Part shown: positions 6,231 through 58,269 of the stretch, piece after piece
Layout: each line of letters starts with the position of its first letter
Numbering within the stretch: the stretch's first letter is position 1
DNA from: Chrysomallon squamiferum
Lineage: Eukaryota; Animalia; Mollusca
NCBI GenBank assembly: GCA_012295275.1
Contig: CM022668.1
Location: 13,702,001-13,766,000 of the forward strand
DNA: 64,000 bases
Direction of reading: 5' to 3'
Made by a program: the position numbers and the translations under genes
The notes under the pieces: model-generated
The model's database searches: none
What the model was told of the DNA's origin: nothing
What the model saw: the letters and a program-made list of their open reading frames with translations, nothing else

Positions 6231-6244
6231 AAAAAAAAGTATCA

Positions 6245-6620
6245 AAATGCAGGGAGTAATGCAGAGCTCTGAGGAAGAGTTAAAGCAAAAATTAAAATTG
6301 CTCGAAATGGAAAGACAAACACAAATAAAAACGAAAGGCAAACACGAATGGAAGAAATTGAAAATGCACAGAAACAGCTAGAAACAGATCTTAAGGCAAA
6401 AGAAGAAGAAAATAGAAGATAGACAAGAAAAGAAGTGAAAAAGGAAGCAGAAGCAGACAGCAGAACCACTGATATGGTCAGAGATGCTGTTACATTATTT
6501 GCTCGAAATATTGCTGTTAATACATTTAAGACTGTCAGGAAACGGCTTTAAATGCATTCAAGTTTATTTTTGGCAAATGAGCCTCAGTAATATGTTGGAG
6601 ATAAAAAAATGAAAACAAAG
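6245..6620 (+). pseudogene. GIMAP: GIMAP 3' fragment (end of coiled coil and C-terminal helix)
   Basis: Translates to RKEVKKEAEADSRTTDMVRDAVTLFARNIAVNTFKTV...NEPQ*YVGDK, matching the C-terminus of copy A. It contains stops, has no G domain and abuts repeat sequence. Confidence 0.78.
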
Positions 6621-6761
6621 AACTAACCAGTGAACTGAGTATCAGTATCGTCATAACTGTTGCTGACATCTCTTCTGTTTATATATTCCTGTCAAAAATA
6701 AATAAATAAATAAATAAATAAAACCAAGCCACTGCTATATTTTCCCTTTGTATGTTATGTC

Positions 6762-6868
<107 letters not shown>

Positions 6869-7412: not shown

Positions 7413-7451
<39 letters not shown>

Positions 7452-8835: not shown

Positions 8836-8909
<74 letters not shown>

Positions 8910-10036
8910 GTGTATTTATATATAAATGTAGGTATGTTTCTATGAATGTGTCTATATCTATATGTGTATATGTAAATATGCATATGTGTGTGAACTATGT
9001 ATTATTGTAAGTTAAATAAATCGTTGTTAAGTACTAGACATATCATAATGGAGTCATGTTGGGGGTTGTTCTTTGAGCCATTAATTTTATTTTATTATTA
9101 TTATTAATATTTAATGGATTTTAGTATTCTTTATTGCTGTTGTTTCAATGAATTTTGGTCATAATTCTTGTTACTGTTGTCGCTGATTTGTCTTTTTATC
9201 TTTTCTGTAGTTGTTGCTGCGGTTGTGGAATTTGGTCACATTGACTGTTATTGTTGTCACTGTTGTTTTCTTATTTTTGTTATTAAAGAGAACAAAGAAC
9301 TAATTAGTGAACTGACCATTATGTTTAGATATTTGTTATATATTAATATATTATTTTATTGATTTTGTTCCTCTGTGGTTAATGTATTCCGATTTATTTA
9401 TTTATTTATTTATTTATTGTTGTTGTTTTGTTTGTATTGTTCTGAGTTTTAGTTATATTAGTTATTCTTCTTGCGTTTGACACGTATTTCGGTTTATTTC
9501 TTTCTTGTTGTTGTTGTTGCTGTCGTTGTTGTTGTTGGATATTCTTATTGTACTAGTTATTCTTCTTGCTATTGTGATGTATTTCTATTTATTTATTGTT
9601 GTTGTTTCTTGTTGTTGACTCTCCAGTTGAAGCCACAACAGCACTGTCCATTTTAAGTAAGATATGGTAATACTTGGACCATTTTGAAGTTGCACAACCG
9701 TATTCTGAATAATTAGTTTGTGATGTAGAAACTATAAACCATTTATTTAGTAGTTCATAGCTGGTTTTTCTTCCGACTAGAACTTTCTATTATACTGTTA
9801 CTGTATTTAATACATCTAACAATACAGTGGCCTAAGACTGAAACTAAACGCGAACGATATTGCAATCAAGGGAGAGAATCTATGTTGTTCCTGACCCGAA
9901 GTCTGGTGAAGTTTTTTTGTTTTTTCTTCTTATCTTAGTTGTCATTTTGTTGTTGTTGTTGTTGTAATTGTTGCTACCATTTTGGCATTCTGAAATGTGT
10001 TCAAAGTATTTGTTTTTTAAAAGTGTTCTCTTATAT

Positions 10037-10072
<36 letters not shown>

Positions 10073-11012
10073 TTGTTCTTGTTGGTTGTTGTTGTTTTGC
10101 TGTTGGCCTTCAGTTCTCGTTGTCACTTTTTATGTTTTTAGTTTAATGCTTTGTTATATAAATATGAAACACATACGTGGTTTTGTTAATATATAAATAT
10201 TCATTGTTCATGATATTTAGTTAACTATTATTACTGTTGTTGTTGTTGATATTGTCCGTCTCTATACATGTATGTAATTATGTAAGCTTGTTTATTTATT
10301 ACAGTAGCCTATCTCACTAGTTACATAGCATAAATATTTCCGACTAAAACTTACAAACTAATTAACATTGATTTATTGATTTATAATATAGATAGTCAAA
10401 AATATGTATATATATATATATATATATATAAAACTTTTCAAATCATCAACATCTCTGACCTCCATTGATGATTTGTCGGTATCTGTTTCACTCAGTTTAA
10501 TTTTGATCTTTTATTTTTCATTAGTGGCTTTGGTTTCAGCGATGTTATGTTGGTCTTTAAACACATTAAACAAAAACAAATAATCTTTCTCTTGACGAGA
10601 GAGTGCAGAGAAAACATCATTTGATAAAGATGGAAAAAGTGTAACCCCAATGTAAGAAAGACAATTATATGTTTCACTTGCCATTTTCAGTTTAATCGTT
10701 CACTATATGTATGATTCTACAAAACTATACATTATAAAATCATAATTAGAGTAAAATCTCTGTTTCTGTCTGTATCTAGATAGCCAGCAAGCTAGATAGA
10801 TAGATAGAAAGACGGATAGATAATCTCCCTCTCCCTATTTCTTTTTTTCACCTTTTTCCATCAATTATGCATTAAGCAAACAAATATTCACTCCAGTTAT
10901 CAGATGTTTCGAAATAATAATAACAGTAATTAATAATAATAATAATAATAATAATAATTATTTCTCTTGTTCTCTTTAATAACAAAATGTTTTTGATTAT
11001 TTTCTCTTGTTT

Positions 11013-12376
11013 TCATTGTTTATCTCCAACATCTTGCTGAGGCTCGTTTACCGCAGTAAAATAATTCCATGCATGTGTAACCAATCCCCCCACAGTCTTA
11101 ACTGTATTTCCAACAGCAATTCCAAAAACTAGTGATACAGCATCTCCAACAGCATTAATGATTCCACCGCCGGCTTCTGCTTCCTTTCTCACTTCATTTC
11201 TTGCCTGACTCCTATATTCATCTTCTTTTGCCTTAATATATGCCTCTAGTTTCCTCCGTTGTTTTTCAATTTCCTCCTTGTACTTTTTCCGTGCTTTTTC
11301 AGCTTCTTCCTTTTGTTTTTCTCTTTGTTTTTCCATTTTTATTTGTATTTCTCTTTTCATTTCCTCTCGCATCAGTTTTAGTTTTTCCTCACTGCTCCGC
11401 ATTTCTCTTTCTCTGTCTTCCAAACGTGTGAGTTTCAGCATTTTCTCTTCACGTTTTCTAAGTTCTTCTTCCTTCTCCTTCAATATTTTCTCTTCACGTT
11501 TTCTAAGTTCTTCTTCCTTCTCCTTCAGTATTTTCTCTTTAAGTTTTCTTATTTCTTCTTCTTTCTCCTTCAATATTTTCTCTTTATTTATTCTTTCTTC
11601 TTGTTTCTCTTTTAGTATCTTTTCGCGTTTTTCTATTTCTTTTTTTTCTATTTTTTCCATGAACTCTTTCACCATTTTTTCCCGTTCTTTTTTAAATTCT
11701 TCCTCTTTGGTTTTCAGTATTTCTCGTTCACGTTTCTGTACTTCTTTTTCTGCTGCTTCCATTAATTCAGATTTATAATATTCACCGCCATTTTCTCGCA
11801 CATTGGATTTGATCATGTCAATCAGTTTGTGAGCCATTTTTTCTTTCTTTTTCTCGTCTTTTTCGCGATTGTTGAATCCAACATATCTTCTTCCACATGC
11901 ATTGATTAAAGTCTTCAGTTTTTCTGGTGCATCAGCTAGTAATTGTTCAAGATCTATTTCGTCCTCTTCGAGATCGTCAAGTCTGGTGAATAGCAGGAAC
12001 AGGTAATCAAACATTTTTTTTCCAAATACTTGCTCGTAGTATTCAATTGTTTTTTGATCTTCTGGAGTAAACCTCTTTGGCTGCAGAACCATGATGAAAG
12101 CATGTGGTCCTGGAGCACTCATCGTTATACACTGGATGATTTCTTTCGTAATCTCTCCTTGTGAACGTTCAGTGTCAAATGCTCCTGGTGTATCAGTGAT
12201 AACAATATCGTAACGAAATCGAGATTTGTGTTTTACCGCGCAGGTTGAAGTAACGGATTTCAGAGAAAGTTTAGATTCAAAACGTTTCTCTCCTAGGATG
12301 GTATTTGCTGATGCACTTTTTCCTGAGCCAGTAATCCCAATCAAAACAAGCCGCAGTTCATTGTCAGTAACGGAAT
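11013..12376 (-). CDS. GIMAP: GIMAP/AIG1-family GTPase terminal coding exon (copy A): G domain + long coiled coil + amphipathic C-terminal tail
   Basis: Open frame with [23 protein letters not shown] (G1), SVT (G2), DTPG (G3), PGPHAF...RFT, FTRLDDL (G4) and RYVGFNN, followed by a K/E-rich coiled coil. Splice acceptor ttatttcag|AT at 12377/12376 (phase 1). The true start must lie in an upstream exon. Confidence 0.93.
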
Positions 12377-13064
12377 CTGAAATAATATTAAATGCTGTGA
12401 ATCTAGAAACGAAGACATTATTTTATCTTCTCGTTCTTCATGTTGTTGTTAATATTAAACAATCAATATTATTATTATCATCGTCATTATGATAATTTTC
12501 ATTACCCGAAACACTACTACAATTACATTACAACTAATATTATTACCATTCTCTCTACTATCACCGCCTTCCACGATTTTTTCACTAAAAAGCCGTTTTC
12601 GAAGAAATATATTTTCCTTCGAGAACAGAAGTGTCTTGTCAAATAATATATGAATTCATCATATACGCGGTGTATTGTCAGTCAGGCCTCTTTAACAAAT
12701 TTGTTCCTCTCGGGAACGAAATCATAGCTAATAGTTTGTGAAACTTTAAAATGTATTTCAGGGGTCGTTTCTACAACTCGACAGTTCTGATTACAATTTG
12801 ACCCAAATCGAGGCTATCCTCGTCGCCAAACGTTTGTGTCCGCAACAACGATAAGACAGTCAGAAAATCCCAGCACAACATCAACATATCTACAGGGAAA
12901 AACGGCGAACGGAAACGAATATAATTACTTCATTTGCAATATTATTGCAGTACATAGTATGAAAGGGGAGCGCAAAATTCGATGGATGTCGAGGCCACAA
13001 AAGTCTAAGGATAATACGACACTGTATCTTGCAGACCTTTATATCAAACAACAGCGAACACTGT

Positions 13065-13432
13065 GCTGTCATCTGAAAAGCTAATACTCCGCCATGATGC
13101 AATGTTCCAGCGATCACGTTGATTACATCAGACACGTGGTGCTGCTTTGTGAGCTGAAGACAGTTTAATAGACTTCGTGGGTTGTCTGGCCCTGTATCCT
13201 GCTACTGTTGGTCATTAGGAAATGGCTGTCCCTCGTAACCACTGTGGTTTTAAAGATGTGCTTCTGCCCCATGAACGGCGTCTAACAACACTTAAAAATT
13301 CTCTGTCCTCTCTTATTGTTCGCTGCCAGGTCTTGGACGATATTTGACATTGTTGGTAGCCCTGTCTTTGTTCAAAAGTCTTGAAATGATGGAAATTTTG
13401 CGCAAACATTGACTTACAATTTGGCTGAGGGA
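13065..13432 (-). mobile_element. Tc1 fragment
   Basis: Homologous to 20700-21060; encodes WNIASWRSISFSDDS (region of the first catalytic Asp). A further small piece lies at ~14010-14240 (+). Confidence 0.72.
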
Positions 13433-16250
13433 CATGGATCAATGCCAAACTGCCGAGCCTCTCATATTTCATTGTGGATCACGTTTACGAGTAGAACAAA
13501 AACCTCTGTCTAGTACGGTTTGTTTCGATAAGTTACAAGTAAATTCGCAACCAGATGAACATGTTTGGAAAAGTTTCATGTATTTCATTTTTAACAGTTA
13601 TGACCACCCTTTCGAGCCATTGTCAAAATTTCAAATAAACCTTTGTATACTTTCTTTGTTATACAGTTTAATGCACACTTAGCGTCTCTCGTATCAAAGA
13701 CGTGCATGAAGTGTTTGCCATGTACACAGTATCAAAATTTAACACTAAAAGAAAAAAAGTCTAGTCAGCCTTCAGGATAATGTTGCACTGGTAACATAGC
13801 TTTGATCCTGAAGAAACATTTATTTATTGCTGAGGAAAACGTATTTCTCCGATAATAGCAATGTAGGATCGACGCCTAGTTTTCTATTAACTGCTCTATT
13901 AACTAAACTTTTTCACCCCTCTGGTCGATTCACTAGTTTTGTTCGTAATCTAATTAGCCTGTTAATTTCGATTTGATGTTTTATGATAGCACGCATATTA
14001 AAGGTCGTCTAAACCCTGGGAGACCCGGTAGCACACCAATAAAAGAGGACAGAACTTTGCTAAGTGTTGTTAGACGCCGTTCATGTGACTCAACGCATCT
14101 TTAAAAGAACAGGAATAGGCTAAAAGGAACAAGCTACAGGGCCAGAAGACCCATGAAGCATATTAAACTATCTTCAGCTCACAAAGTAGCAAGACATGTC
14201 TGATTTAATCATCGTGTTCGCTGGAACATTGCATCATTGATATATCAAGAAGTGATAAGTAAATATGTAAACAAATGTACATGTTTGGAAAAGTTCCTTG
14301 TATTTCATTTATAACAATTTTGACATAGTGATAAATTAAGACTGGCGGTTTGACCCCAGCACGTTCGGTCATGATTGTGCATAAACTGACTCACAATTCC
14401 TTGTTTATATAGATGCAACAGAGTGTGACATAACAGGTATTTATACTTCGAATTCATGTGTAAGCAGAGGGTTTGATGTTAAAAATAAAATAATGATGTA
14501 ATAAATATGTTATAATAAAAACATGTATACGTACAAATCAGATACAGTATAAACATCAATACAAATACTATGAACTTTCTGTAATGGCTTTTAATATACA
14601 TGAGTAATTACGTGTCTTCGAAATTGATACGTGTGTAATTCTGAAGAATAAGTTTGAAGTACAAGATTGTTAAATATCACTGCATTTGTTTGTATCTAAA
14701 CACATTTATTACTTGAAATTGTTGTATTAAACTGTTAAACACAAAATAATAATAATAATAAAAATAATAATAATAAGAAGAAGAAGAAGAAGAAGAATAA
14801 TGGAGAAGTTGGCCCTACTACTAATTCATGTATTAATGTATTTTTCAAAGAGTTAACCTCTTCGTAACTGGATTACTCTCACAGCTGTCTGTTTCACTAT
14901 CAGCCTTTCTATCCATATATCTATGTATCTGAAAATCTGCATATGTATATACAAAGTCATTTATATTGATCAGTATATAGAGAAACGAGATCTGAGAGTA
15001 ATTTTAATTTATATAAAAAAGACAAATAAAATTCAAGAGATAATTTATGTCATTTAAGCGTTGTGAAATATATAACTATGAGAATGAATTTAAAACTAAC
15101 AGAATTTCTGGCTGCCTTGTTGTGGGTGCAGACACGGATGGCTCCGATTTGGGTCAGATGGTAATGAGAACTGTCGAGTTGTAACCAAGGGTACAAAAAA
15201 AAAAATAGGCCATAAATACATTTTAAAGCTTTACAAACTGTAATGGTTCATCCTAATACTGTATCATAATCGGGCGCGTGTCGACATGCAAAGATCTGTT
15301 TATCTAATATAGTATTCTCTATATAAAGCTTACGTATTGTCGTTTTATGAAAGATTTGGCAAAACACTTCTCTTCACGAAGAAAAATATACTTCTCCGAA
15401 AACATTCTTTTAGTGACAAAGTCGTTGTGTTCATATTTTCTCTCGGGACATCCCATGTAAAAATTTTTTCAAAATAATTAAGAACAGTTCTACTAATACA
15501 ATTATTGAAGTTTTTTCCAAGAGTTAATTTTTTCTTAACTCGATTATTCTGCCTGTATGTCTGTGCCTCTGTTTCTCTGTCTGCCATCTAACTACCTGAA
15601 ATCATCTTCATATATATACATTTTTTAATGAAATGGATAAATACACTTTAGAAAACCAATTTCTTTCTTTATATTCTCATTTATTTTATTTTTATACAAT
15701 ATTTGTCATGTATTATTACATTTACTTTTAAATTTAAGAACAATACAAAAAAAAAGAAAAAAAAAGGAATAGGGTGGTTTTCTGGGGGCTGGAACGGATT
15801 AATGATATTTCAATTAATTTTACAACAAAAACAACAGTAGCAGTAATAATATTAATAATTGTTGTAATGACAACACTGGTAATACTACTAATAATAACTG
15901 TATAATAGCGGTTACAGAGATAGTAGCAGTAGTAGTAATGTTAGTACTAGTAGTAGTATAAATAATAATAATAATAACAAACAGTACCCCAATCAATCAT
16001 AAATATACACACGGCATATACATAGAAATGTATTAAACACATTGTCCAAAACCCAAATCATTACAGATTAATATTTGCAACACAATATTAAAACTGTTTA
16101 ATGTTTTCTTTTGAAAAGGCTTGTTCCATAGATAAAAGGCATCTACAAAATGCACAAAAATATAAAGAATCTATTAATGTGTTTGTTTCCAGACAAATAG
16201 TTAATATTCAGTTCAGTAGTTCTTTGCTTTTATTTTTTATCTCCAACATC

Positions 16251-17494
16251 TTACTGAGTCTTGTTTGCCACCAGAAAGAAAGACTTGAGTGGAGAACCCA
16301 CCTTGGTAATGGTATTTTCAATCGCATTTCCAACATTTCTCAGGAAAAATTTGTTTGTTTCTGCTTCTTTTCTAACATCAAATCTTGCCTCTCTTCTATG
16401 TTCTTTTTCTTTTGCTCTGAGTGTTTCTTCTAATTTTCTCAGTGCTTCTGTTTCACTATTCAACTGCCCAATTCTTACGTTCATCGCGGACATCTTCTTC
16501 ATCATTTCCACTTCTTTGAATGTTCTCTGTGTTTCTAATTCTATTTTCATCTGCCTAAGTTTCGCCTTCATCTCAAATATCTCCTGCTCCTTTTCCATTT
16601 CTTCCTTTCCTCTCAAAAATTCTTTCCCAAACTTCTCTTTTGTTCTTTGCATTTCTCGTTCTCTATCTTTCTCCGTCAATTGTTCCTGTAGGAGTTTTCT
16701 TATTTTCTCTTCTTTCTCTTTCAGTATTTTCTCCTCGCGTTCTTTGGCGTCTTTTCTACTTTTTTCAATTTCTTCCTTGAATTCTCTTTCAATTTTTTCT
16801 CGCTCCTTTTGTATTTCTTTTTCTTTCTTTTTCAGTATTTCTTTTTCACGCTTTTGTACTTCTTTCTCAGCTACTTTCAATAATTCCGATGTATAACATT
16901 CGCCATTATTTTCTCCCACGTTTTTTTGTATCATGTTGATCAGGTGAAGAACCATTTCTTCTTTCTTTTTCTCATCTTTTTCGCGATTGTTGAATCCGAC
17001 ATATCTCCGTCCACATGCATTGACTAATTTTTTAAGGTTTTCTGGTGCCTGAACTAGCAGTTCTTCCAGATTTGTTCCGTCTTCTTCAAGATCGTCTACA
17101 TGGGTGAACAGCAAGAACAGGTAATCAAACAATGCTTTTCCAAATACTTGCTCGAAGTATTCAATTGTATTTTGTTCTTCCTTAGTACACCTCTTTGGCT
17201 GCAGAACCATGATGAAAGCATGTGGTCCTGGAGCACTCATCGTTATACACTGGATGATTTCTCTCGTAATCTCTCCTTGTGAACGTTCAGTGTGGGATAC
17301 TCCTGGCGTATCAACGATGACAATATCCTGACCAAATCGAGTTTTGTGTTCTACCTTGCAGGTTGAAGTAACTGAAGAAACACTAGCTACAGAAAGAAAA
17401 AGTTTCTCTCCTAAGATGGTATTTGCTGACGCACCTTTTCCTGAGCCAGTAATTCCAATCAAAACAAGCCGCAGTTCGTTGTTAGTCACGGAAC
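16251..17494 (-). CDS. GIMAP: GIMAP/AIG1-family GTPase terminal coding exon (copy B), P-loop variant GSGKG
   Basis: Intact frame with [47 protein letters not shown] and a coiled coil. Acceptor cttttag|GT at 17495/17494 (phase 1). Confidence 0.92.
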
Positions 17495-17899
17495 CTAAAA
17501 GAATATCAAATACACTTAATGTAGAATCGAAGACATTATCTTTATCTTCTAATTCTTTCTGTTATTGTTGTTTATATTGTAAATCAGTATTGTTATTAGC
17601 ATTATGGTTTATCCATATATATCTGTCAGTCTGTTTATCGGTATTATTTTCATTTTCTGGTTCTTCCTGGTGTTGTTTTTGAAACAATTAAATAATCATT
17701 ATTATTATAATTATGATCCTTTCCATTAATTTAACCACTACAACCACAATAGTACAGCTTTCTCAGCTGTTACTGCCTCTCAAACTAGTGTTACTATTAT
17801 TACTATAACGAAGAAAAACATCAAAAAACACCAACGAAGCTACAACCAGTTCATAGACGTGTAATTCTGTCAATATTGTTGAGATCATGTTTGTATTTA

Positions 17900-18880
17900 T
17901 TATATGTCATACTCTCAATTTGCATTGAATACTGAGTACCATAATTGTCATCACGACGTAGATTGACATAAGAAATACAGGAAAGACCCTCAGCCAAACT
18001 GGACATCAACTTGTGCGCAATATTTCCATTATTTCATGACTGTTGAACAAACACAGGGCTGTCAATGATGTTCATGATTGTCGAAGACATGGTGGACCCC
18101 AGAAGACAACAACAAGAGAGGACAGAGCATTTTTGAGTAATGTTAGACGCCTTTCATGGGACACAAGCACATCTTCATTATGACGGTGGTTATCAGGCAC
18201 AGTCATTCCGTATACGACCGACAGGAATCTGCTAAAAGCAGAATGATACAGGGCCAGAAGACACATTAAGTCTGTTAAACTCTCTTCAGCTCACAAAGCA
18301 GCACAGTCGTTTCTTACTGCCTATGGTGGATGATCGAGCACGTGTCTGGAGAAAAAGTAAAATAGACCCGGCATATCCAGCATATGGGTCAGTATTTGTT
18401 ATTTGGAAACGTTTCTTTGGCTTACAAGATGGACTACGTCACCATTGGTAGTAACCTTAATAAGCCTCGGTATGAACAAGAGATGCTTGAGAGAGCTGTT
18501 GTCTTCAGTTTTGATAATTGTCCTCCAGCCACAAGATCTGTCTTCATGAACTTCAACGCCACGCTCTCAGAGCACGTGCTTTTACCCATTTCTTACAACA
18601 GAAGGCTGTTGAGACTTTTTCATGCCCAGCCACAGTCCAGACCTGAATCCCATTGAGCATCCGTGGACATTTTAGGACTCATGTTCAACTGAGACCCGCC
18701 TGTCAATGAATTAAGTGCTGCTTTACAGTGTTCTTTAAAATCAAATTCAGAGATTGAAGCGTTTTGAAGCAGCTGTTCGTGTGCAGGAATGTTACGCGAG
18801 ATACAGATGGAAAGTCAATATTTGGACTTGCCAAATATTATTCTTCATTTGCGTGAATCAGATGTGTGCATGGAACAGAC
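17900..18880 (+). mobile_element. Decayed Tc1-family transposon
   Basis: Fragmented transposase with an N-terminal GRP-type region and the Tc1 signature SPDLNPIEH at 18634-18660. Confidence 0.82.
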
Positions 18881-19682
18881 TGTTAAGTCTGTGCAATAAC
18901 TGTGAAATTCGTAACGTTTTTGAATGAAATTAAATCATTTACTAAAAATAAAAAATAAAATAAAAAAATAAAAAGTAAAAAAATATTATGTATATGTATT
19001 AAAAATAATAAATAAATATGGAAATAAAAAAGATAATAAAATAAAATAAAATAAAATAAAATAATATAATATAATGTAAAATAACTAAAACAATCATCAT
19101 GCAAATCTTCAGAATTTTTGGTTAACTCCGAGAAGAAAAAGAACAAACTAGTCTTTATATTTGTCTGTTATATGAGACCTCACTGACAATACACCGTGTA
19201 TAAGTGGAATTAACATATTGTTTAATTCTTTACAAATGCATTGATATGTAACTTTTGATAACCAGTACACAAAAAGTCTTGACCAGCTGAATAATTCAGA
19301 TTAGTGGTGACCCCCGCTCGTTCAATCCGGACAGTTCGTCAAAATTTAATATTTAAAACTCTCTCTATAACTACTATTATTACTATCCCTACAAATAATA
19401 TTACCACTGTCTATACAAGTATTATAACTTCTCTCTCTTCCACTTCTATTTCTACTATCTCTACCACTACTACTCCCAGTCCTACTACTATTACTATAAC
19501 TACAGGTTTAATCAATACAACTGCTGATATTTCTAGTACTCGTACTGCGACGTTAGCGACAGCGTGTAGTAAAACTGTTACCAAATTTATACTAGAGGAC
19601 GACGTTACAGTATTAATGATTTTGTAAATTACTGAAGTATATTTCTTGAATGACCAGTATTTGCAAACTTTGATACACATAC

Positions 19683-19869
19683 CAGACATTGATAAATCTG
19701 AACCATTTTTTGGCTGGACGTATTCTGACGGTTGGATTTCTTTTGATAGCTTGACTTGTTGTGATTCGTGGAGTTCTGGTGAAGGTTCCACCCTTCTTAA
19801 TGGCTCGACTCTTTGCAATGGCTGCACTTGTTTTGCTGGCTTCGTATGTAGTGTAGCGATAGACTGAGG
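19683..19869 (-). CDS. GIMAP: Upstream GIMAP coding exon (Pro/Gln-rich linker PQSIATLHTKP...DLSMSG)
   Basis: Acceptor ttaaaag|CCT and donor TCTG|gtatgt; 187 nt, phase 0 in and phase 1 out, matching the GTPase exon acceptors. A homologous exon with the same boundaries lies at 35345-35417 (+). Confidence 0.78.
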
Positions 19870-20201
19870 CTTTTAAAAAGAAAGGTAAAATGAACATATA
19901 AAACGAAAATCAAAATTTTATTGCAAAATTACTGTATATGTGTTTTTGACTGAATTTGTATAAACATGTCTGTACGCAAACCTGCACATATTATGTAATA
20001 TAAGTTTATAAATATAAGATTTTATTTATTTTCTTATTTGAAAGCGGTGGTGTCTTTAAACAATTATTCACTCATTTGTTACTTATTTATTTACTTATTT
20101 ACCCCACTTATTCTTAGCATTTTCTTCAGACATGAATTAATGAATTTTTAAAACCTGTTTAATCTGGTAAATAAGTAAAGTGGTGATTTAATGATGCTCA
20201 C

Positions 20202-20251
20202 CTGTTGTTCAAAACGCTTCTTTAATTCAGAAACTGATATCTGTTCATCAT
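20202..20251 (-). CDS. GIMAP: Upstream 50-nt GIMAP coding exon (DDEQISVSELKKRFEQQ)
   Basis: Acceptor ttgttctag|AT and donor CAG|gtgagc; phase 1 in and phase 0 out, joining exon 19683-19869 in frame. Homologue at 34947-34997 (+). Confidence 0.75.
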
Positions 20252-20419
20252 CTAGAACAAAATTTAAAAAAATGTAAGTTTTTCTCTCAGTATTTAATTA
20301 TATCCATCTATCTATGTGTGAATGCATGTGTGAATGTATGAATGAATGTTTGCATTTTTCTTCCTATGTATCTTCAAACCTATCTATCTATACATGAGGG
20401 AAACAAACTAAGCAATACC

Positions 20420-21060
20420 AATTCACAGACCTGTAATTGTGTGAATTAAGAAAAGAGCGCATTTTCCTGAATAATGTATTGGCGTGTGGCATCTTGCTGA
20501 ATAACGTGACTTTCCTAGAGGTACTCAATGTACTTACAACAAAAAGCAATGCTCGTGAAACGTCATTGTTGAAATCTGGTTGGTAATAATTATATGTCAC
20601 ACTCATTCCAGTCAGTTTGCGCTGAATATTCAGTATCACAACTGTCATGGCACGTTGTAAACTGTAAGAGGCTACAATGTGGCAGAAATGCAGGAATGTC
20701 CATCAGCCAAATTGGACGTCAATGTGTGCGCAATATTTCAATCACTTCAAGACAGTTGAACAAAGACAGGGTTGCCAATAATGTTAGAGATTGTCCAAGA
20801 CCGTGCAGACGCCGAAAGACGACAATAAGAGAGTACAGAACATAGCTGAGTTCTGTTAAACTCCTTTCAAGAGACACACGCAGATCTTTAAAACAGCAGT
20901 GGTTACCAGGGAGAGCCATTTCTTACAGGACTGTCAGGAATCTGCTAAAAGCAGAAAGATACAGGGACAGAAGACACTAAAACTGTCTTCAGCTCACAAT
21001 GCAGCACGACTTGTCTGATGTAATCAACGTGTTCGCTGGAACATTGCAACGTTTCAGATG
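20420..21060 (+). mobile_element. 5' half of the Tc1-family element
   Basis: atggcacgttgtaaactg start at ~20647; homologous to the transposase HTH ORF at 34295-34555. Confidence 0.78.
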
Positions 21061-22330
21061 ACAGCTCATTGGTGCTTGAGATAAAGTTCTGCAAGATGCA
21101 GTGCCGTATTATCCTTAGGCTTCAAACTTTTCTTGACTCTCGACATCCCCGAACGCACTTCCGCACGAATGTTCAGCTCTCCTTGTAAGTAATTAATTCA
21201 GTAACAAAGAAAATGATAGCATCTTATCAGGCAACCTTTAATTAGCATGAAGCAAAGGCACTTCAAAATATCGGTATTGTACTATAAAGTTAAATATACA
21301 TATATATTCCTACAAAGGTATCTAGGTACTTAAACATTTGTCTCGTTAATGTTTCAACAAACTGATCCAGAATAGTGTTAAGACTTAATTTCCAGAGAAC
21401 ATATGATTCTACATCCATTAAAGCCAAATTACTGTGCTTTTCATCTTTCACAGTGGATCACAGGTAGCTATTTCAGAGCAGAAAAAAACAACCTCTCTCC
21501 AGAACAGTTTGTATCGAGAAGTGACAAGCAAATACGTAAAAAAAAAATATACATTTTTGGAAACGTTTCTTGCATTTAATTTTTAACAGTTTAAGATGGG
21601 GGGTGCGAGTAACTATGTGTCAAAATTTGACCCTTCATTTTTGTTAATGTTTTTTTGTTTTATGTTCTTTAACTCACTCTTAGCGTCTCTATATCAAAGA
21701 GGATTCCTATAAATCAATTTCACTGACGCGCATGAAGCGTTTGCCGTGTGCATAGAATTAACATATAACACTAAGAGAGAGAAAAGAAAATATTGCATAT
21801 ATCTTTTGTAAAACATTTCGTTATGAGCTTTCACAAAAAAGAAAAAAAAGAAGAAAAAAAACATTCAGAATTAACTCCACTAATACCCTCTTTATCAAAA
21901 GAGGGGACTTTACACTTCGAACTTTTTGGTGGGCTCTCGACATTTCACAACGTCCCTTCTCACGAACTGCAAGCTCTCGTTTCATATAGTGTATTACAAT
22001 AATATTAGAAATGGAGTAACTAATGGAATAACAAAGAAAATAATATCATGTTTTCAGTCAACCTTTAATTAGCATGAAGCAAAGCAATAGTAAAAATACC
22101 AGTAATGAACTGCAAAATCAGTTCGGGCCTGACTGTGTCAAAGTTTCACATAAACTGACCCATCATTTCTTTTCGAGTAGATTAACTCATCCTTAGCGTC
22201 TCTCCTATCAGAGGATTCCTATAAATTAATTCCACATTCTTATGACATTTAACACTAAGACAGAAAAAGAAAAAGTTTGCATATATGTGTTCTAAAATGT
22301 TTCATTACGAGCTTCGTAAAAACATAAGTT
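21060..22330 (-). mobile_element. Stacked hAT remnants
   Basis: Same family blocks (gccaaattactgtgcttttcatc; gtatcgagaagtgacaag) repeated. Confidence 0.62.
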
Positions 22331-22743
22331 TCAAAATTAAGAAAGAAGAATATAAACTCAACTAATATCCTCTTTATCAAGTTCTTTATCAAGAAAATAC
22401 CTAAAGTTGATAAACTGATTAATTATATTATTTATTACAATTTAATTAAATTCAAAATGTCTTACAAGAAGCCATAGTTTCTCTTTTTCGAAATTTAATA
22501 AAATTCTGAAACTGAATGCAGCTCGGGCTGTTCACTAAAGAATACAAATACTCGTTGGTGCTTTATATAAGTATTGATGAAACAGCACCGCTCCTGAGGA
22601 AAACGAATTTTCCCAAAACTCGTATTTCTATGACTAAATAACAACGCGCAAACCAACTGTGACATACCAGCTATTAATACATTGAATTATTGTGTACTTT
22701 GTGGGTTTTAAATTAAAATTAAAATAATGATGTAATAAATATG

Positions 22744-23617
22744 TTACTTTATCATACCAATATCGTGTTCTTTGGCTTCTTTTCTTTCCATGAATTCTAT
22801 CTCAGATTTTTCTTGCTGCTGTTGTATTGCTTTTTCGTTTTCATTCAATTTTTTCTGCTCGCGTTCCTTGGCTTCTTTCATACTTTTTTCAATTTGTTCC
22901 ATCATTTCGTTCTCAGCTTTTTCTCGCTCCTTTTGTATTTCTTTTTCTTTCTTTTTCAGTATTTCTTTTTCACGCTTTTGTACTTCTTTTTCAGCCTTAT
23001 CCAATAATTCTGATTTAAAATAGTTGCCATGACTTTTGTTCACATTTTCCTGTATCTTCTTCATCAGGTCAAAACCATTTTCTCCTTCTTCTTCTCATCT
23101 CTTTCGCGATTGTTGAATCCGACATATCTTTGTCCACATTGTTTAAGTAATTGTTGAAGGTTTTCTGGTGCGTACTCCAAATATTCTTCAAGGCTTACAT
23201 CATCTGCTTCAAGGTTGTCTAATCCGGTGAACAACAATAACAGGTAATTAAAGAATGCGTTTCCAAAGGTGTCCTCGAAGCACCGAATTGTTTTTTCATC
23301 TTGTTCAGTAAACCTCCCAGTCTTGATAACCATGATGAAAGCATGTGGTCCTGGAGCACTCATCGTTATACACTTGATGATTTCTTTCGGAATCTCTCCT
23401 TGTGGAACGTTAGCGTCGAATGCTCCTGGTGTATCAATGATGACAATGTCATGACCAAATCGACTTTTGTGTTCTGCCTTGCAGGTTGAAGTAACAGATT
23501 GACCAAAAGGTTTAGAAACAAAACGTGTCTCTCCTAGGATGGTATTTGCTGTTGCACTTTTTCCTGAGCCAGTAATTCCAATTAACACAATCCGCAGTTC
23601 TTTGCCAGTAACGGAAT
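22744..23617 (-). pseudogene. GIMAP: GIMAP copy C: complete G domain, 1-nt frameshift near 23071, coiled coil truncated at ~22760 by repeat sequence
   Basis: ORFs 23064-23588 and 22744-23064 are consecutive parts of the same GIMAP exon in different frames. Acceptor ttttttcag|AT at 23618/23617. The C-terminal helix seen in copies A and B is absent. Confidence 0.82.
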
Positions 23618-26600
23618 CTGAAAAAATTTCAAATGCATTTAATGTTGCAATGTAGAATCGAAGATATTATTTTTATCTTCTCATTGCTGCTCTTATCATT
23701 GTTAATATTCTAAATCATTATCATTATCATCATTATGATTTATCTACTTATGAAAATATCTGTCAGTCTGTGTATCGGTGGAAGCATTATTTTCATTCCG
23801 TTGTTGTTGTTGATAAAATTAAATAATCATTATCATCATCATTATGATCATTTTCATTAACTTAACCACTACTACCACAATATTACAACTACTGTTCTTA
23901 CAACTCTCTCTGTTTTACTGCCTCTCAAATCACTAGCACTGTTAGTTGTACAACGATCGCTTCAAACCCAATCCTATTGCCACTCTGTCTACAGCTACTA
24001 TTACTATGTTTTGTTAACTACTATTACTGCTCTCTTTACAACTACTATTACTGCTCTCTCTACAACCGATATTACTAGACACGCTACTACAACTAATATT
24101 ATTAGGCTGTCTATAATTACGTATAGTAATCTCTCTACAAGTACTATTACTAATCTCTCTAGATCTATGGTTACTACTTCTGTCTACGACTAATATAACT
24201 ATTTTTTCTATAGCTACTATTACTACACTCTCTACAACTACTGTTACTACTATATCTACAACTACGTTGACTACTCTTTCTTCAACTACTGCTATTCTCT
24301 GTCTAGAACTACTGTTACTACTTTCTTCATTTCGCACTGAGTGGTAAGCGCATGTTAGACAAAGTTAGATGTTTACACAACTACTGTTTTAATGATAATC
24401 CTGTGAAGTAAACATTTCCTTGTTAAAGAAAACATGGCACATTTTGCTGTTATACCAGCTTGTCATTTCCAATTGCCTCGACTTCATAATTCTATGTACA
24501 GATACCACAGAAAAAATGTTTTTTACTTCTCGTACGACACATTTGTTTTGGACCTAATTTATTCAGTCGGTTAATTTCGAAGGCCTTTCACATTAGATGA
24601 TTAATAAATAAATATATATATGTTTTTAAATCTGATAGTTAACCTGGCTCAAACACATACAAATACACACACGCACATACAGATTCATACAAATCACACA
24701 GAGTATAAATAAAACATATCTGAAATAGATTACTAATTTAGTTACCAAAGGTGCTTGATCCCAAACATATGTTTTGAAATAAGAAATAACTGCCTGTTTG
24801 GGCAAGTTCGTAAGTTAACATTGGTGTATTAGACTGTTAAACATGCCAATGGGGAAAAAAATAAATAATAAATAAAATAAAATAAAATAATATGACGGAA
24901 CCTCATTAGTGCCTCTTAGCAAGACTTGTTTTTATTCATAATTTTATATTCTATGTGGTGAATTATATAATATTCACAAAACACTTATTTATATGTGCCC
25001 ATTTAAAGCAGAATTTCTGCTACATTTTATAGTAAGTATATTATTACATTACGGTCATATTTACTCAGCTATCGTGTATAATCTTGTTTATAATTCATAT
25101 TTTAACAGTTCTTAAATGTTTACCTAATTGATGTGAGAAAATTTGGGTAAATACACAAAAACTAAATAGGAGAGTGTTAGCAGACGTACATGGGCTTGTT
25201 AGAAGCTGTATTATATAATTAGGGGACGTTCTATTATTTTATAAACTAAGAAACTCTGGGATTAACAAACTCAAAATTGGAGTTTAAGTTGCAAAGTAAA
25301 TTCAGAAAAGGCTGTTTGCAGAGGGCTTTCATGAACGCCTGCGCGATGGCTGCACATATTCGAAGTGACAAGTAAATATGTAAACAAATGCAAAAATTTG
25401 GAACAGTTTGTTGCGTTTCAGTTTCGAGAGTTTTAACCAGCAGAAGAATTAAAATTGGGAGGGGACCCTCAACCATTCGTCCCATCCGTGATAGTGCATC
25501 AAAGTTTCATATAAAATCACACATAATTTAAAATAAAATAAAATAAAATAAACAAGAAAATCAATCAATCAGTCAATAAAACATTGCATAGCTCATGGCT
25601 CTTGGTCGACCCCTAGGCTTCAAGCTAGTCACCTGGTAACATAGCACTGATTCTAAAGAAAACGTATTTCGACCTAAATAACTATTAGCCATCAACACAT
25701 AATTACCTCTATCGGTTAATTGTTTTATTAACTTTTATTTTATACTTCTCGGGTCGATTCACTTGTTTTGGACGTAATCTAATTAGTCTGTTAATTCCTA
25801 TTTGTTGTTTTATGATAACCCAGACCACACGTTTTATGTTATATCAACCTTTGATTTATAATTTTGTTTCTTCAGCCATGCAGACACACACAAACTCATT
25901 CGAACACACCAACACATGCATTCATAAACACCAAATAGCGTAGAAATAAAACATAATGCAGATTACATATACAGAAACAAAATCAAGAATTTTAGTTGGG
26001 CAGAAACGAAATACCTCCGGTTGAAAAATTCATCAATAATTCAGTTACCGAAAAATGAATGGTACTTTTACAACTCTCTACAATACTATCTCTACACTAT
26101 ACAACTAATACTACTACTCTCTCTCTCTTTAACTATTCTCACTACTCTCTGTACAGCTGATATTACTACTGTCACTCTAAAAATAATATTCCTACTCTCT
26201 CTACAACAGCTATTAATGCTCTGTACAACTACTATTACTACTCTCTCTCTCTGTACAAGTACTATTACTACTCTGTCTATAACGAAATGAAGTCGGCTAG
26301 GAATGTTCAGCGTATTATTAGTTTGTGATAAGAGTACTCTCTGTTGCTTTATACAAAAAATCTCAGTTCCTGAGGAAAACGTATATCCCTAAATGCAGCT
26401 TGTTACGATCGATCGATCATTCATATCTAGTTTCCCGATATCTGGATCAACAAGTAACATATTTGTTTTATCGTTTATTATATCCAACTATACATATTAT
26501 ACATATTATGTTTAACGTAGGCTATTTGTATGTGTCTTTATGTACAGTATATACATGTGTATCTATAGTATTTATATGTATGTTAACACTTTATGTTTAA

Positions 26601-26652
26601 ATTAAGTTATTTATAGTGTTGTTTGTTTTGTTTCTTTATTTATTTATTTATT

Positions 26653-26684
<32 letters not shown>

Positions 26685-34946: not shown

Positions 34947-37460
34947 ATGATGAACAGATTTCAGTTTCTGAATTAAAGAAACCATTTTGAACAACAGGTG
35001 AGCATCATTAAATCACTACTTGATTTATTTACTTAGTATCAGATTAAACAAAAATACATTAATTTATGTCTGAACAAAATGTTACAACACATTATAAATC
35101 AAGTTAAAATAATTACACAAAGTGCCAAAGAAATGGGTTAAATAAATAAATATATAAATAAACAACAAATGAGTGAATGATTTTTTAGTGACAGCAGTGC
35201 GTTTAAATAAGACAGTAAATAAAATATATTTATAAAGTTATATTACACTGTATTGTAGATAAATTAAATCAAAAATACATATGCTGTAATAATGCAATGA
35301 AATTTGTATTTTCTGTTGATATGTTTGTTTTACCTTTCTAAAAGCCTCAGACACTTCAAACAAACCAACCACCACAACAAGGTGTGTCAAAAATTCGTCG
35401 AGGTTCTCTGACGTCTGGTATGTGTATCAGTTTGTAAATACTGATCATTCAAGAAATATACTTCGATAATACGCAAAATCATTAATACTGTAACGTCGTT
35501 CTCTAGTACAAATTTTGTAACAGTTTTATTACACCCTGTCACTGACGTCGCAGCAAGAGTACAAGAAGTAATAGTAGCTGTAGAGAGTAGTAATACAAGC
35601 TGTACAGAATAGTAATACAAGCTGTACAGAATAGTAATACAAGCTGTACAGAATAGTAATACAAGGTGTACAGAATAGTAATACAAGGTGTACAGAATAG
35701 TCATAGTAGGTCTAGAGTGTAGTAATAGTAGTTGTAGAGTGTAGTAATAGTAACTGTAGAGTGTGGTAATAGTAAATGTAGTGTGTTGTAATACAAGCTG
35801 TACAGAATAGTAATACAAGGTGTACAGGATAGTAATACAAGGTGTACAGAATAGTAATACAAGGTGTACAGAATAGTAATACAAGGTGTACAGAATAGTA
35901 ATACAAGGTGTACAGAATAGTCATAGTAGGTCTAGAGTGTAGTAATAGTAGCTGTAGAGTGTAATAATAGTAACTGTTGCGAATAGTAATAGTAACTATG
36001 GACTGTATTATGAGTAGCTGTAGAGAACTGTAGGGAGAGAAAGTAATAGTCATTGTAGTGAGTAGTAATATTAGTGCTAGAGAGAGTAGTAGTAGTAGTA
36101 GTTGTAGAGAACGTAACAACTGTCATGCCTTGTTAGTACTAATAATAGCAACTGTGGGTTGAGAGGCAATAATGGTAGAGAGAGTTGTCATATTGTGGTT
36201 GTAGTGGTTAAGTTAATTTGAAATGACCATGATGATGATAATAATAATGATTTACAATGTTAACAACAATAACAACAACAGTGAGAAGATAACAATAATG
36301 TCTTGGATTCTACTATTAAATGTATTTGATTTTCTTTAAGATTCCGTTACTGACAATGAACTGCGGCTTGCTTTGATTGGAATTACTGGATCAGGAAAAA
36401 GTGCGTCAGCAAATACCATCCTAGCAGAGAATGGTTTTTCTTCTAAACCTAGTCTTACATCCATTACTACAACCTGCAAAGTAGAACACAAAACTCGATT
36501 TGGTCGTGACATTGTCATCGTTGATACACCAGGAGCATTCCAAACTAACCTTCGTTCACAAGGAGAGATTGCGAAAGAAATCATCCAGTGTATAACGATT
36601 AGTGCTCCAGGACCACATGCTTTCATCATGGTTGTGTAGGTAAAGAGGTTTACTAAGGAAGAACAAAATACAATTGAATACTTCGAGCACGTTTTTGGAA
36701 AACCATTGTTTGATTACCTGTTCTTTGAAGAAGAAGGAAAAAATCTGGAAGATTTTCTATTTACTGAATCAAGAAATCAAAAAACATTAATCAATGCATG
36801 TGGACGGAGATATGCCGGTTTCAATAATCGCGAAAAAGATGAGAAAAAGAAAAAGAAATACAAAAGCTTGAAATTGAAATACTGACAGAAAAAGAAAAAG
36901 AAATACAAAGGGAGCGAGAAAACATTGAGAGAGAATTCAAGAAAGAAATGGAAAAAATCAGAAAAGAAGGAAAAACGCGAGGAGAAAATACTGAAATAAA
37001 AAAAGAAGAAATAGAAAACTCAAAGTGGAAATATTGAAAATGAAAGAAGAAGAAATGAGAAAACTCAAAATGGAAATATTGAAAAAGAAAGAAGAAATGA
37101 GAAAACACAAACAGGAAGTGTTGAAGGCGAAAGATAGAGAACGAAAAATGCAAATAATAGAAAAGAAGTTTCAGGAAGATTGTTTTATTAAAATGAAATG
37201 GAAATGTGCAGGAGATGTTTGAGATTAGGGAAAAAATGATGCAGAGTGAAAGAGAAAAAGAAGCACAGAGAAAATTAGAAGAAATACTCAGAGCAAACCA
37301 AAAAGGGCATAGGAGACAGTCGAGAAATGAATTTTAAAAAGAAGCAGAAACAAACGAATCTCTGCTGGATTCTGTTGGGAAAACTATTACAAAAACGGGT
37401 TCTGCACTCAGGTCTTTCTTTTTTGGATAAACATGCCTCAGTAAGATGTCTCAGGTAAAA
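34947..37460 (+). pseudogene. GIMAP: Inverted GIMAP pseudogene (exons 34947-34997, 35345-35417, 36341-~37460)
   Basis: Same three-exon layout as copy B. The micro-exon has a +1 nt change, there is a TAG at 36637-36639, the LLFTxxDD (G4) segment is deleted near 36725, and the coiled coil has further frameshifts and stops. Confidence 0.88.
35580..36110. repeat. 22-bp minisatellite (aatacaaggtgtacagaatagt)n in the GIMAP pseudogene intron
   Basis: Direct tandem units; the reverse complement resembles the 57.3-kb array. Confidence 0.85.
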
Positions 37461-40821: not shown

Positions 40822-54908
<14,087 letters not shown>

Positions 54909-56699: not shown

Positions 56700-57300
56700 C
56701 CTATAAAGTTACTATTCAGTTCAATAGTTCTATGTTTTCTTTAATACAAAATATTCTTACATTATTTCGCTCTGTTAATTTCTTCTAATTTTCTCTTTTT
56801 TTTTTTTTTTTTTTCATTTCCAACATCCTAATTTTGTTTCTCCTTTTCCGTTTCTTTCTTTTTTTCTGCAAAATTCTTCCCTAAACTTGTCTTGTATTCT
56901 TTGCATTTCTCGTTCTTCGTCTTTCAGGACTTTTTGGTTCAAGGTTTCCTGTTAAAATATTCTGATTTTCTCTTTCAAGATCTCCTCTTGGCATTTTCTC
57001 ATTTCTTTTCCTTTCTACTTCAGTTTTTTCTGTACGCGTTATTTGGTTTCGTTTATACTATGTTTTTCTATATCGTGTCGATCAGGTGAAGAACCTTTTA
57101 TTTTTTTTCCTTCCTTTTCTTATCTTTCTCGCGACTGTTGGATCCAACATATCTTCGTCCACATGCATTAATTAATTTCTTTTTATATTTCCTTCTGCCG
57201 TAGACGAAAAAAAAAGTTCCGTCTTCATCAAGATCATCTAAAGCGCTGACCAGCAAGAACACGCAATTAATCAATGATTTTCCAAATACCAGCTCAACTA
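56700..57300 (-). pseudogene. GIMAP: Degraded GIMAP fragment (G4/RYVG region to coiled coil)
   Basis: Nucleotide similarity to copy B, e.g. tcgcgactgttggatccaacatatcttcgtccacatgcatt (NACGRRYVGSN). The G1-G3 part is missing and the fragment runs directly into a minisatellite. Confidence 0.75.
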
Positions 57301-57985
57301 TTACTAGTCTCTGCGGCTACTATTACTACTCTCTGAAGCTACTATTACTACTCTCTGCGGCTACTATTACTATTCTCTGAAGCTACTATTACTACTCTCT
57401 GAAGCTACTATTACTACTCTCTGAAGCTACTATTACTACTCTCTGCGGCTACTATTACTACTCTCTACAGCTACTATTACTATTCTCTGAAGCCTACTAT
57501 TACTACTCTCTGCTGCTACTATTACTACTCTTTGCAACTACTATTACTACTCTCTGCGGCTACTATTACTACTCTCTGAAGCTACTATTACTACTCTCTC
57601 TCTCTACAGCTACTATTACTACTCTCTACAACTACTATTACTACTCTCTACAGCTACTATTACTACTCTAGACAGCTACTATTACTATTCTCTACAGCTA
57701 CTATTACTACTCTTTGCAACTACTATTACTACTCTCTACAGCTACTATTACTACTCTAGACAGCTACTATTACTATTCTCTACAGCTACTATTACTACTC
57801 TTTGCAACTACTATTACTACTCTCTACAGCTACTATTACTACTCTAGACAGCTACTATTACTATTCTCTGCTGCTACTATTACTACTCTCTGAAGCCTAC
57901 TATTACTACTCTCTGCGGCTACTATTACTACTCTCTACAGCTATTATTACTACTCTTTGCAACTACTATTACTACTAGTACTACT
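57300..57985. repeat. 22-bp minisatellite (gctactattactactctctgaa)n
   Basis: About 30 tandem units. Confidence 0.9.
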
Positions 57986-58269
57986 CTTGAACTTTTGACG
58001 ACATACTGTCACGGAGGGTTACCTCCTAATCTTAATTTTTGTGCTGGTTAAAACTGTCAAAAATGAAACGCCAAAACCTCCCCCCAAAAAAAAAAAAACC
58101 AAAAAAGCACGTATACTGTAATATTGTAATTAAATTTTCATTTTCGGTTCATATGTTCATTTGATCTTTCTTTTAAAAAAGTCTCAGTCTAACGCGCCGG
58201 AACATGCAAAGCCATTATAGAAAGTGCAGCAAATGTCTATGCATATATGTTTGAAAATGAACATATGGT

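What the first reader, a model, noticed from the sequence alone, without database searches (positions are those of the whole stretch)
11013..23617. Possible cassette system: shared 5' exons with alternative terminal GIMAP GTPase exons
Seen: three co-oriented GTPase exons (acceptors at 23617, 17494, 12376) all begin in phase 1, as does the 50-nt micro-exon (20251), and the linker exon ends in phase 1. Only one set of these small exons (20202-20251, 19683-19869) exists on this strand. I find none between 12377 and 16250, yet copy A is an intact 454-codon frame with no obvious start codon of its own ahead of the P-loop. Inference: one promoter and N-terminus could be spliced to alternative last exons, each carrying a whole GTPase+coiled-coil+tail module. 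This would be a constant-5'/variable-3' diversification scheme, the mirror image of clustered protocadherin or UGT1 loci. GIMAP expansion in molluscs is established; I do not know of this architecture being described.
Basis: partly seen in the sequence, partly recalled or inferred. Interest (0 to 1): 0.8.

Follow-up and report, generated by a model that had tools for sequence, protein, structure and literature searches.

The report
Decaying snail GIMAP gene array
This is a cluster of six copies of a mollusc immune GTPase gene, four of them broken, and it is most likely an ordinary duplicating-and-decaying gene array rather than a cassette system, although one intact copy with no recognisable front exons might borrow them from its neighbour, which is untested.

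Summary
The exons, splice sites and phases are as described, but they do not make a three-way cassette. Matching phase follows from common descent. Copy C lies upstream of the 'shared' exons and is frameshifted and truncated. The DNA upstream of copy A is rearranged copies of the flank that precedes the micro-exon elsewhere, as if A lost its small exons. What survives is narrower. A is intact (454 codons, canonical motifs, first Met at codon 85) and has no recognisable micro-exon or linker, while B, which has them, lacks the Walker A serine (Gly in 1 of 440 homologous domains). A could be a second last exon of the B gene (about 0.33), have a short first exon of its own, or be freshly orphaned. 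Three RNA runs showed no spliced junction, not even the expected linker-to-B one, so the test failed. Constant-5'/variable-3' genes are known (lola, mod(mdg4)); four literature searches found no GIMAP case.

The parts
11013..12376 (-). Copy A: intact GIMAP terminal exon (AIG1 domain, Lys/Glu-rich tail), phase-1 acceptor, canonical Walker A and DTPG motifs, first Met at codon 85; ATTAAA 32 nt after the stop
   Evidence: (AIG1 211 bits)
12560..16200 (.). A-B interval: 75% is similar to other places in the window; it holds a same-strand (about 14760-13990) and an inverted (13435-12900) copy of the flank-plus-Tc1-like block found before the micro-exon in B and D; no micro-exon or linker
15596..15611 (-). 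Best chance-level candidate for a private first coding exon of A (ATG, five codons, phase-1 donor scoring 2.9); unverified
   Evidence: putative chitin synthase donors score -0.9 to 8.2 on the same matrix
16251..17494 (-). Copy B: open GIMAP terminal exon (414 codons with the split codon) with Walker A Ser replaced by Gly and three more departures at conserved columns (F66S, D67H, F102C); AATAAA 16 nt after the stop, also present in D
   Evidence: (204 bits)
19683..19869 (-). Linker exon, 187 nt, phase 0 to 1; holds an in-frame ATG just before its donor
20202..20251 (-). Micro-exon, 50 nt, phase 1 to 0; encodes a V-x2-L-x3-F-E motif also seen before the GTPase domain in other molluscan GIMAPs
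20400..22750 (.). Flank of B: Tc1-like remnant (family label recalled from the transposase-like frame, not searched) plus locally repeated blocks; no first exon identified
22744..23617 (-). Copy C: pseudo-exon; 183 codons open, 1-nt deletion near 23072, tail cut off by repeat DNA; upstream of the micro-exon
   Evidence: (198 bits)
24330..24500 (-). Possible decayed linker end (donor at 24456, score -1.8) just 5' of the satellite that precedes C
   Evidence: (17 and 75 of 1000 shuffles); weak
34947..37445 (+). Copy D: whole inverted unit, dead. Micro-exon 34947-34997 (51 nt, frameshifted), linker 35345-35417 (73 nt, frame kept), GTPase exon from 36341 (stop 36637-36639, several frameshifts)
6250..6622 (+). 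Copy E: A-like tail fragment with a stop
56766..57302 (-). Copy F: B-like GTPase-exon remnant, many breaks
58103..58235 (+). Linker acceptor and 5' fragment, inverted relative to copy F

Best explanation
The window holds six GIMAP terminal-exon copies, four of them broken, in what is likely an ordinary birth-and-death array made by repeated duplication and inversion of a whole gene unit (flank, micro-exon, linker, GTPase exon), with no regulated sharing of 5' exons. Shown: the six copies, their breaks, a second whole unit (D), and copies of the same 5' flank upstream of A. Inferred: A descends from a whole unit whose micro-exon and linker (237 nt, frame-neutral) were lost in a local rearrangement. 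A then either starts from a short private first exon that I cannot recognise (about 0.29) or was orphaned so recently that its frame is still open (about 0.26). B keeps the only intact small exons but is predicted to bind Mg-GTP poorly, and may be decaying.
For: Whole inverted unit D with its own micro-exon and linker. 4 of 6 GTPase copies broken. Self-similar DNA covers 45-97% of 18 of the 19 2-kb bins from 1 to 38 kb but 0-22% of the 9 bins from 38 to 56 kb, so most of the repeats are likely local segmental copies. A's upstream DNA shares a block-to-Tc1 junction with B's flank. An inverted linker fragment beside F shows small exons being separated from their GTPase exon at this locus. C, with 183 codons still open, shows recent deaths. 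A weak private donor cannot be excluded: 6 of 8 putative chitin synthase donors score no higher than the 2.9 candidate at 15596. Pecten and Gigantopelta paralogues each carry their own diverged motif-bearing N-terminus. In an unnamed Logan set, 4 of 4 full-length forms use the same GTPase body although four body types are present. Tandem arrays with partial copies and one exon per AIG1 domain are reported in Biomphalaria (PMC7053062, passages).
Against: A's frame would survive neutral drift in 9% of simulations at 1% divergence and under 1% at 2%, yet the rearranged pieces upstream of it are 67-86% alike. If the loss is that old, A is under selection and needs an upstream exon. A-B dN/dS is 0.53 (bootstrap 0.29-0.91), and A keeps the motifs that B has lost. 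No private exon was positively identified: 2 of 8 donors in A's interval have an in-frame ATG, the same rate as upstream of B. Informative sites group A with C and B with D (11, against 4 and 2), while A's flank is B-like, so the flank need not be A's own. No first exon was found for B either.
Confidence: 0.55

Rival explanations
1. Two-way alternative last exon. One transcript carries the micro-exon and linker and ends either in B (2.2-kb intron, polyadenylated just after B's stop) or, skipping B, in A (7.3-kb intron). That would give one N-terminus on either a canonical GTPase (A) or a Walker-A-defective one (B). All splicing steps are inferred; it would be a by-product of duplication, not a multi-cassette system.
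For: A is intact, canonical, with an intact acceptor and no Met before the P-loop. The only intact small exons on that strand lie upstream and join A in frame. Neutral survival of A's frame is short. A-lineage changes are 7 synonymous to 10 non-synonymous (p = 0.063). Each exon has a polyA-like hexamer. Lead only: RefSeq Ostrea edulis GIMAPs share a 60 of 60 identical SAM segment between two bodies that are 370 of 397 identical; genomic positions were not checked, and the two accession series suggest separate genes.
Against: The phase match is inherited. C cannot take part. B's AATAAA is conserved with D, which fits B as an ordinary last exon. Relatives look like whole-gene duplicates. The dN/dS signal may date from when A had its own exons, and the A-lineage test is not significant.
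Confidence: 0.33
2. B and A are two exons of one dual-AIG1 protein (GIMAP8-like): a donor near the end of B would splice to A, which would explain why A has no 5' exons and why B tolerates a defective P-loop.
For: Dual-AIG1 genes with one exon per domain exist in Biomphalaria (PMC7053062, passage) and in a partial G. aegis model (P0004). A phase-2 GT at 16255 in B matches a phase-2 AG at 12402 found only in A.
Against: That donor scores -0.2 and overlaps B's stop codon. The strong donor in B (16302, score 6.4) is phase 0, and none of the 3 AG sites in the open stretch before A's P-loop is phase 0. B has a conserved AATAAA after its stop.
Confidence: 0.05
3. Assembly artefact: A's small exons are missing, or the order of units is wrong, because near-identical segments were collapsed or mis-joined; C's 1-nt deletion could also be a sequencing error.
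For: The region is a dense set of direct and inverted local repeats. C's deletion sits in a run of four T.
Against: Copies are mostly 65-87% alike, which is usually easy to assemble (own knowledge). C is also truncated. The window has no N.
Confidence: 0.07

Closest known systems
Molluscan AIG/GIMAP tandem arrays (Biomphalaria glabrata; PMC7053062, abstract and passages)
   Same: Tandem copies in mixed orientation, partial copies, one exon per AIG1 domain. Nearest named proteins are Gigantopelta aegis GIMAPs at 52-56%.
   Different: In the passages seen, that paper reports splice variants that change N-terminal domains on one AIG1 domain, not one N-terminus on alternative AIG1 exons; its supplements were not read.
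Drosophila lola and mod(mdg4) (PMC6237743, abstract and passages)
   Different: They have 20 and at least 31 shown variants; here at most two candidates, no junction seen, and the 5' exons are duplicated too.
Homologous alternative terminal exons with multiple poly(A) sites, e.g. human capping protein beta (PMC3228551, passages)
   Same: Two homologous last exons of like phase downstream of common exons would be this class.
   Different: The same paper warns that tandem gene duplicates give the same picture and are recognised when the other exons are duplicated too, as copy D shows here.
Mammalian GIMAP8 (PMC4201521, passages) and human GIMAP1-GIMAP5 (name seen in a search listing; read-through nature recalled)
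   Same: Several AIG1 exons used by one transcript within a GIMAP cluster.
   Different: GIMAP8 chains its domains in one protein; no good in-frame donor-acceptor pair for that exists here.

Membership tests
GIMAP / AIG1 GTPases | AIG1 domain above the Pfam cut-off | tested here: met
   A 211, B 204, C 198 bits against a cut-off of 27
GIMAP / AIG1 GTPases | Walker A GxxxxGK[S/T] in copy A (and C, D) | tested here: met
   Ser present; 426 of 440 homologous domains have Ser
GIMAP / AIG1 GTPases | Walker A GxxxxGK[S/T] in copy B | tested here: not met
   Gly, seen in 1 of 440 domains and 0 of 89 single-domain proteins; this residue coordinates Mg2+ (10.1101/2022.06.23.497298, passages)
GIMAP / AIG1 GTPases | Coiled coil after the domain | not tested
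   Lys/Glu-rich tail seen by eye; no predictor run
GIMAP / AIG1 GTPases | GTP binding or hydrolysis | not testable with these tools
   needs a biochemical assay
Birth-and-death tandem gene array | Whole gene unit duplicated, small exons included | tested here: met
   copy D with micro-exon, linker and flank
Birth-and-death tandem gene array | Pseudogenes and fragments among intact copies | tested here: met
   4 of 6 GTPase-exon copies broken
Birth-and-death tandem gene array | Each intact copy has its own first exon | tested here: inconclusive
   none identified for A or B; the donor scan cannot exclude weak ones
Constant-5'/variable-3' locus (lola, mod(mdg4) type) | All variable exons intact and, for cis-splicing, downstream of the common exons | tested here: not met
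   true for A and B only; C is upstream and broken
Constant-5'/variable-3' locus (lola, mod(mdg4) type) | Common exons single-copy while 3' exons multiply | tested here: not met
   2 micro-exons and 3 clear linker copies or fragments for 6 GTPase exons
Constant-5'/variable-3' locus (lola, mod(mdg4) type) | Transcripts join the common exon to two or more 3' exons | tested here: inconclusive
   0 of 15 listed joints (27 in all) at any predicted splice site, the expected linker-to-B control included
Constant-5'/variable-3' locus (lola, mod(mdg4) type) | Layout conserved in related species | not testable with these tools
   no animal genomes on hand; protein-level comparison leans to whole-gene duplicates
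Dual-AIG1 (GIMAP8-like) gene | Usable in-frame donor in B and acceptor before A | tested here: inconclusive
   only a donor scoring -0.2 fits the phase; 1 of 8 putative chitin synthase donors scores lower

The most novel reading that the evidence does not exclude
One snail GIMAP gene switches by alternative last-exon choice between an active GTPase (copy A) and a Walker-A-dead pseudo-GTPase (copy B) on the same N-terminus, a built-in active/decoy pair captured from a tandem duplicate: the first GIMAP with swappable GTPase modules.
Probability: 0.27. Interest if true: 0.6.

Novelty: new member of a known kind. Interest (0 to 1): 0.3.

Why it matters
On the best reading it matters little: another fast-turnover molluscan GIMAP cluster. 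If linker-to-A splicing is real, it would show a duplicated immune-gene exon rescued as an alternative last exon. It would also give an active and a predicted inactive GTPase from one promoter, which is of interest because mammalian GIMAPs are reported to act as heterodimers in which one partner stimulates the other (PMC4201521, passage). One RT-PCR decides it.

Tried and rejected
RNA: only three runs were offered (one study, contigs only; shares 0.21, 0.09, 0.03). Laid on 10700-28200, 0 of the 15 listed joints (12 more not shown) fall at 20202-19869, 19683-17494, 19683-12376, or into 23617 or 20251. With no positive control this says nothing against A. Depth over exons cannot be used: contigs only, and many are 90-95% alike and probably come from paralogues. 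No whole genome is held. Protein searches for same-species transcripts found none: best identity 56% among 75 hits; linker exon 0 of 15 candidates; short proteins at most 51% among 7 hits; best 150 representatives at most 55%; exact look-up 0 of 3. Metagenome scans: 0 confirmed of 412 pattern hits and 0 matches to 30 nt of the linker. tblastn of molluscan GIMAP N-termini (15 of 16 chosen; one too short) against the window gave nothing better than E 0.16, so no SAM or other first exon was found. Rfam: 0 matches. The screen for identical N-termini on divergent GTPase domains (5151 pairs among 102 of 239 proteins) was confounded by multi-domain models; only the O. edulis set was usable. A window at 14597-14770 scores higher against the linker flank (77) than C's remnant (64), but it belongs to a repeat block found at four other places, so I rejected it as a linker remnant. 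The donor matrix uses recalled, approximate frequencies, and real donors score as low as -0.9, so the absence of strong donors in A's interval was rejected as evidence. PMC12176472 gave no passage on GIMAP1-GIMAP5 read-through. No structure was predicted, since it could not decide a splicing question.
Full report
Observation. Every coordinate given is right. The minus strand has AG acceptors before 23617 (C), 20251 (micro-exon, 50 nt), 19869 (linker, 187 nt), 17494 (B) and 12376 (A), and GT donors after 20202 and 19683. Micro-exon plus linker is 237 nt, entered and left in phase 1, and reads in frame into all three GTPase exons. A is open for 454 codons; its first Met is codon 85 and the P-loop begins at codon 13. 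A, B and C score 211, 204 and 198 bits on Pfam AIG1. The nearest named proteins are Gigantopelta aegis GIMAPs at 52-56%, so the animal is probably a gastropod. The micro-exon is likely real coding sequence. A V-x2-L-x3-F motif lies before the GTPase domain in 11 of 239 fetched proteins, all molluscan where named. A profile from seven of them ranks the micro-exon first of 56,590 stop-free windows (17.1, next 13.9). This is partly circular, because the motif used to pick those seven was drawn from the micro-exon.

The window holds six GTPase-exon copies, not three. D (34.9-37.4 kb, plus strand) is a whole inverted unit with its own micro-exon (51 nt, frameshifted), linker (73 nt, frame kept) and a GTPase exon with a stop and several frameshifts. 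E (6250-6622) and F (56766-57302) are fragments, and a linker fragment at 58103-58235 faces away from F. C is not a whole module: it has a 1-nt deletion near 23072, its tail is cut off by repeat DNA at about 22750, and it lies upstream of the small exons. A decayed linker end may precede C at 24456. It is the best window in 9 kb upstream of C, but 17 and 75 of 1000 shuffles reach its scores against B and D. The shared phase is inherited and is no evidence of cassette use.

The A-B interval. No micro-exon or linker is there. The interval is not random filler, though. Self-similar DNA covers 45-97% of 18 of 19 bins from 1 to 38 kb and 0-22% of the nine bins from 38 to 56 kb, which hold a chitin synthase gene (Pfam hit on one of three exons tested). 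Most of the repeats are therefore likely local copies of the GIMAP unit. Upstream of A lie a same-strand and an inverted copy of the block plus Tc1-like remnant that precedes the micro-exon in B and D; the inverted copy shares its junction with B. I infer that A descends from a whole unit and lost its small exons in a rearrangement. One caution: informative sites group A with C and B with D (11, against 4 and 2), so the B-like flank may not be A's own.

Is A alive? It keeps the Walker A Ser and the Phe-Asp after DTPG that B has lost. A-B dN/dS is 0.53 (bootstrap 0.29-0.91) over 181 codons and 0.41 over 252. Changes private to A are 7 synonymous and 10 non-synonymous (p = 0.063), which is not significant. 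Pairs with D are near or above 1 (0.91-1.46). I took the indel rate from B-D non-coding DNA (16 gaps per 101 substitutions) and assumed 80% of indels shift the frame; A's frame then survives neutral drift in 59%, 9% and under 1% of simulations at 0.2%, 1% and 2% divergence. So A is either still translated or was orphaned very recently. The rearranged pieces are 67-86% alike, but they may have diverged before being brought together, so the loss cannot be dated. If A is translated it needs an upstream phase-1 donor. That could be the linker, or a short private exon such as 15611-15596. That candidate is at chance frequency (2 of 8 donors upstream of A have an ATG, as do 2 of 8 upstream of B), but it cannot be excluded, because 6 of 8 putative chitin synthase donors, located by eye, score no higher on my recalled matrix. 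No first exon was identified for B either.

B is the odd one. It has the only intact small exons and an open frame, but its Walker A Ser is Gly, seen in 1 of 440 homologous domains and 0 of 89 single-domain proteins, and it departs at three more conserved columns. That residue coordinates Mg2+ in P-loop NTPases (10.1101/2022.06.23.497298, passages), so B is predicted to be impaired. In total departures at conserved columns B is hardly worse than A or C (11, 10 and 10 of 70). B may be decaying, or may be a pseudo-GTPase.

RNA. Three contig-only runs from one study were available. One contig bridges B's acceptor unspliced (17448-17725), and another crosses C's with 30 nt on the exon side, so these libraries hold DNA or unspliced RNA. 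No listed joint is at a predicted splice site, including the expected linker-to-B control, so the decisive test was not achieved. Searches for same-species proteins or transcripts found nothing.

Relatives. Two Pecten maximus GIMAPs on a contig of the same length, and two G. aegis GIMAPs, each carry their own diverged motif-bearing N-terminus. In an unnamed Logan set with four GTPase body types, 4 of 4 full-length forms use one body. Both fit whole-gene duplication. Against this, O. edulis RefSeq models show one SAM segment (60 of 60 identical) on two bodies (370 of 397), and one body with two SAM segments. I could not check positions, so this is a lead only.

Known systems. Tandem AIG arrays with partial copies and one exon per AIG1 domain are described in Biomphalaria (PMC7053062, abstract and passages; supplements not read). 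Constant-5'/variable-3' genes are textbook: lola has 20 and mod(mdg4) at least 31 variants (PMC6237743, abstract and passages). PMC3228551 (passages) describes both homologous alternative last exons and the risk of mistaking tandem duplicates for them. Searches (listings and abstract starts) found no GIMAP with alternative AIG1 last exons; the library lacks most subscription papers. Earlier AI notes report lola-like arrays elsewhere in this genome; they are unchecked and concern other genes.

Verdict. A birth-and-death GIMAP array without regulated exon sharing, 0.55 (A with a private first exon about 0.29, A freshly orphaned about 0.26). Two-way alternative last exon, 0.33. Assembly artefact, 0.07. 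Dual-domain protein, 0.05. These odds are my judgement, not computed values. The three-module diversification system is not supported. Interest 0.3; about 0.6 if linker-to-A and linker-to-B junctions are both shown.

Noticed in passing
window 12300-12250 and the matching parts of B, C and D: The segment just after the P-loop is hypervariable among the four copies (20-28% different in that 90-nt window against 6-13% in the one before it), and C-D dN/dS is 1.46 (0.82-3.15). Possible diversifying selection.
   Followed up: partly
window 11016-11040 against 16251, D and E: B, D and E stop at TAA where A has CAA and runs eight codons further.
   Followed up: partly
window 12142-12069, approximately: A and B share a 74-nt identical tract although dS is 0.26; possible gene conversion.
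   Followed up: no
window 40825-52275 (-): Multi-exon chitin synthase gene (PF23000 on one exon) lying between GIMAP copies D and F; its introns are nearly free of the local repeats.
   Followed up: partly
window 39520-40750: Tandem repeat array of about 1.2 kb just downstream of the chitin synthase gene.
   Followed up: no
window 19360-19516, 23974-24326, 26063-26280, 35558-36110, 57297-57982: A GTA-rich satellite sits in the intron before the GTPase exon in B, C, D and F; a fifth copy at 26 kb has no recognisable exon beside it.
   Followed up: partly
window 29837-30871 and 31556-32595: Inverted pair of about 1 kb (78% alike) between the minus-strand copies and inverted copy D; it may mark the inversion centre or hold the missing first exon.
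   Followed up: no
proteins P0044, P0082-P0086 (Ostrea edulis RefSeq): One SAM segment on two GIMAP bodies and one body with two SAM segments: a possible case of real exon sharing in an oyster GIMAP cluster.
   Followed up: partly
window 1-10900: A second family of local duplicates (2-906, 1021-1911, 7143-8346 inverted, 9186-10868) with no GIMAP exon recognised.
   Followed up: no
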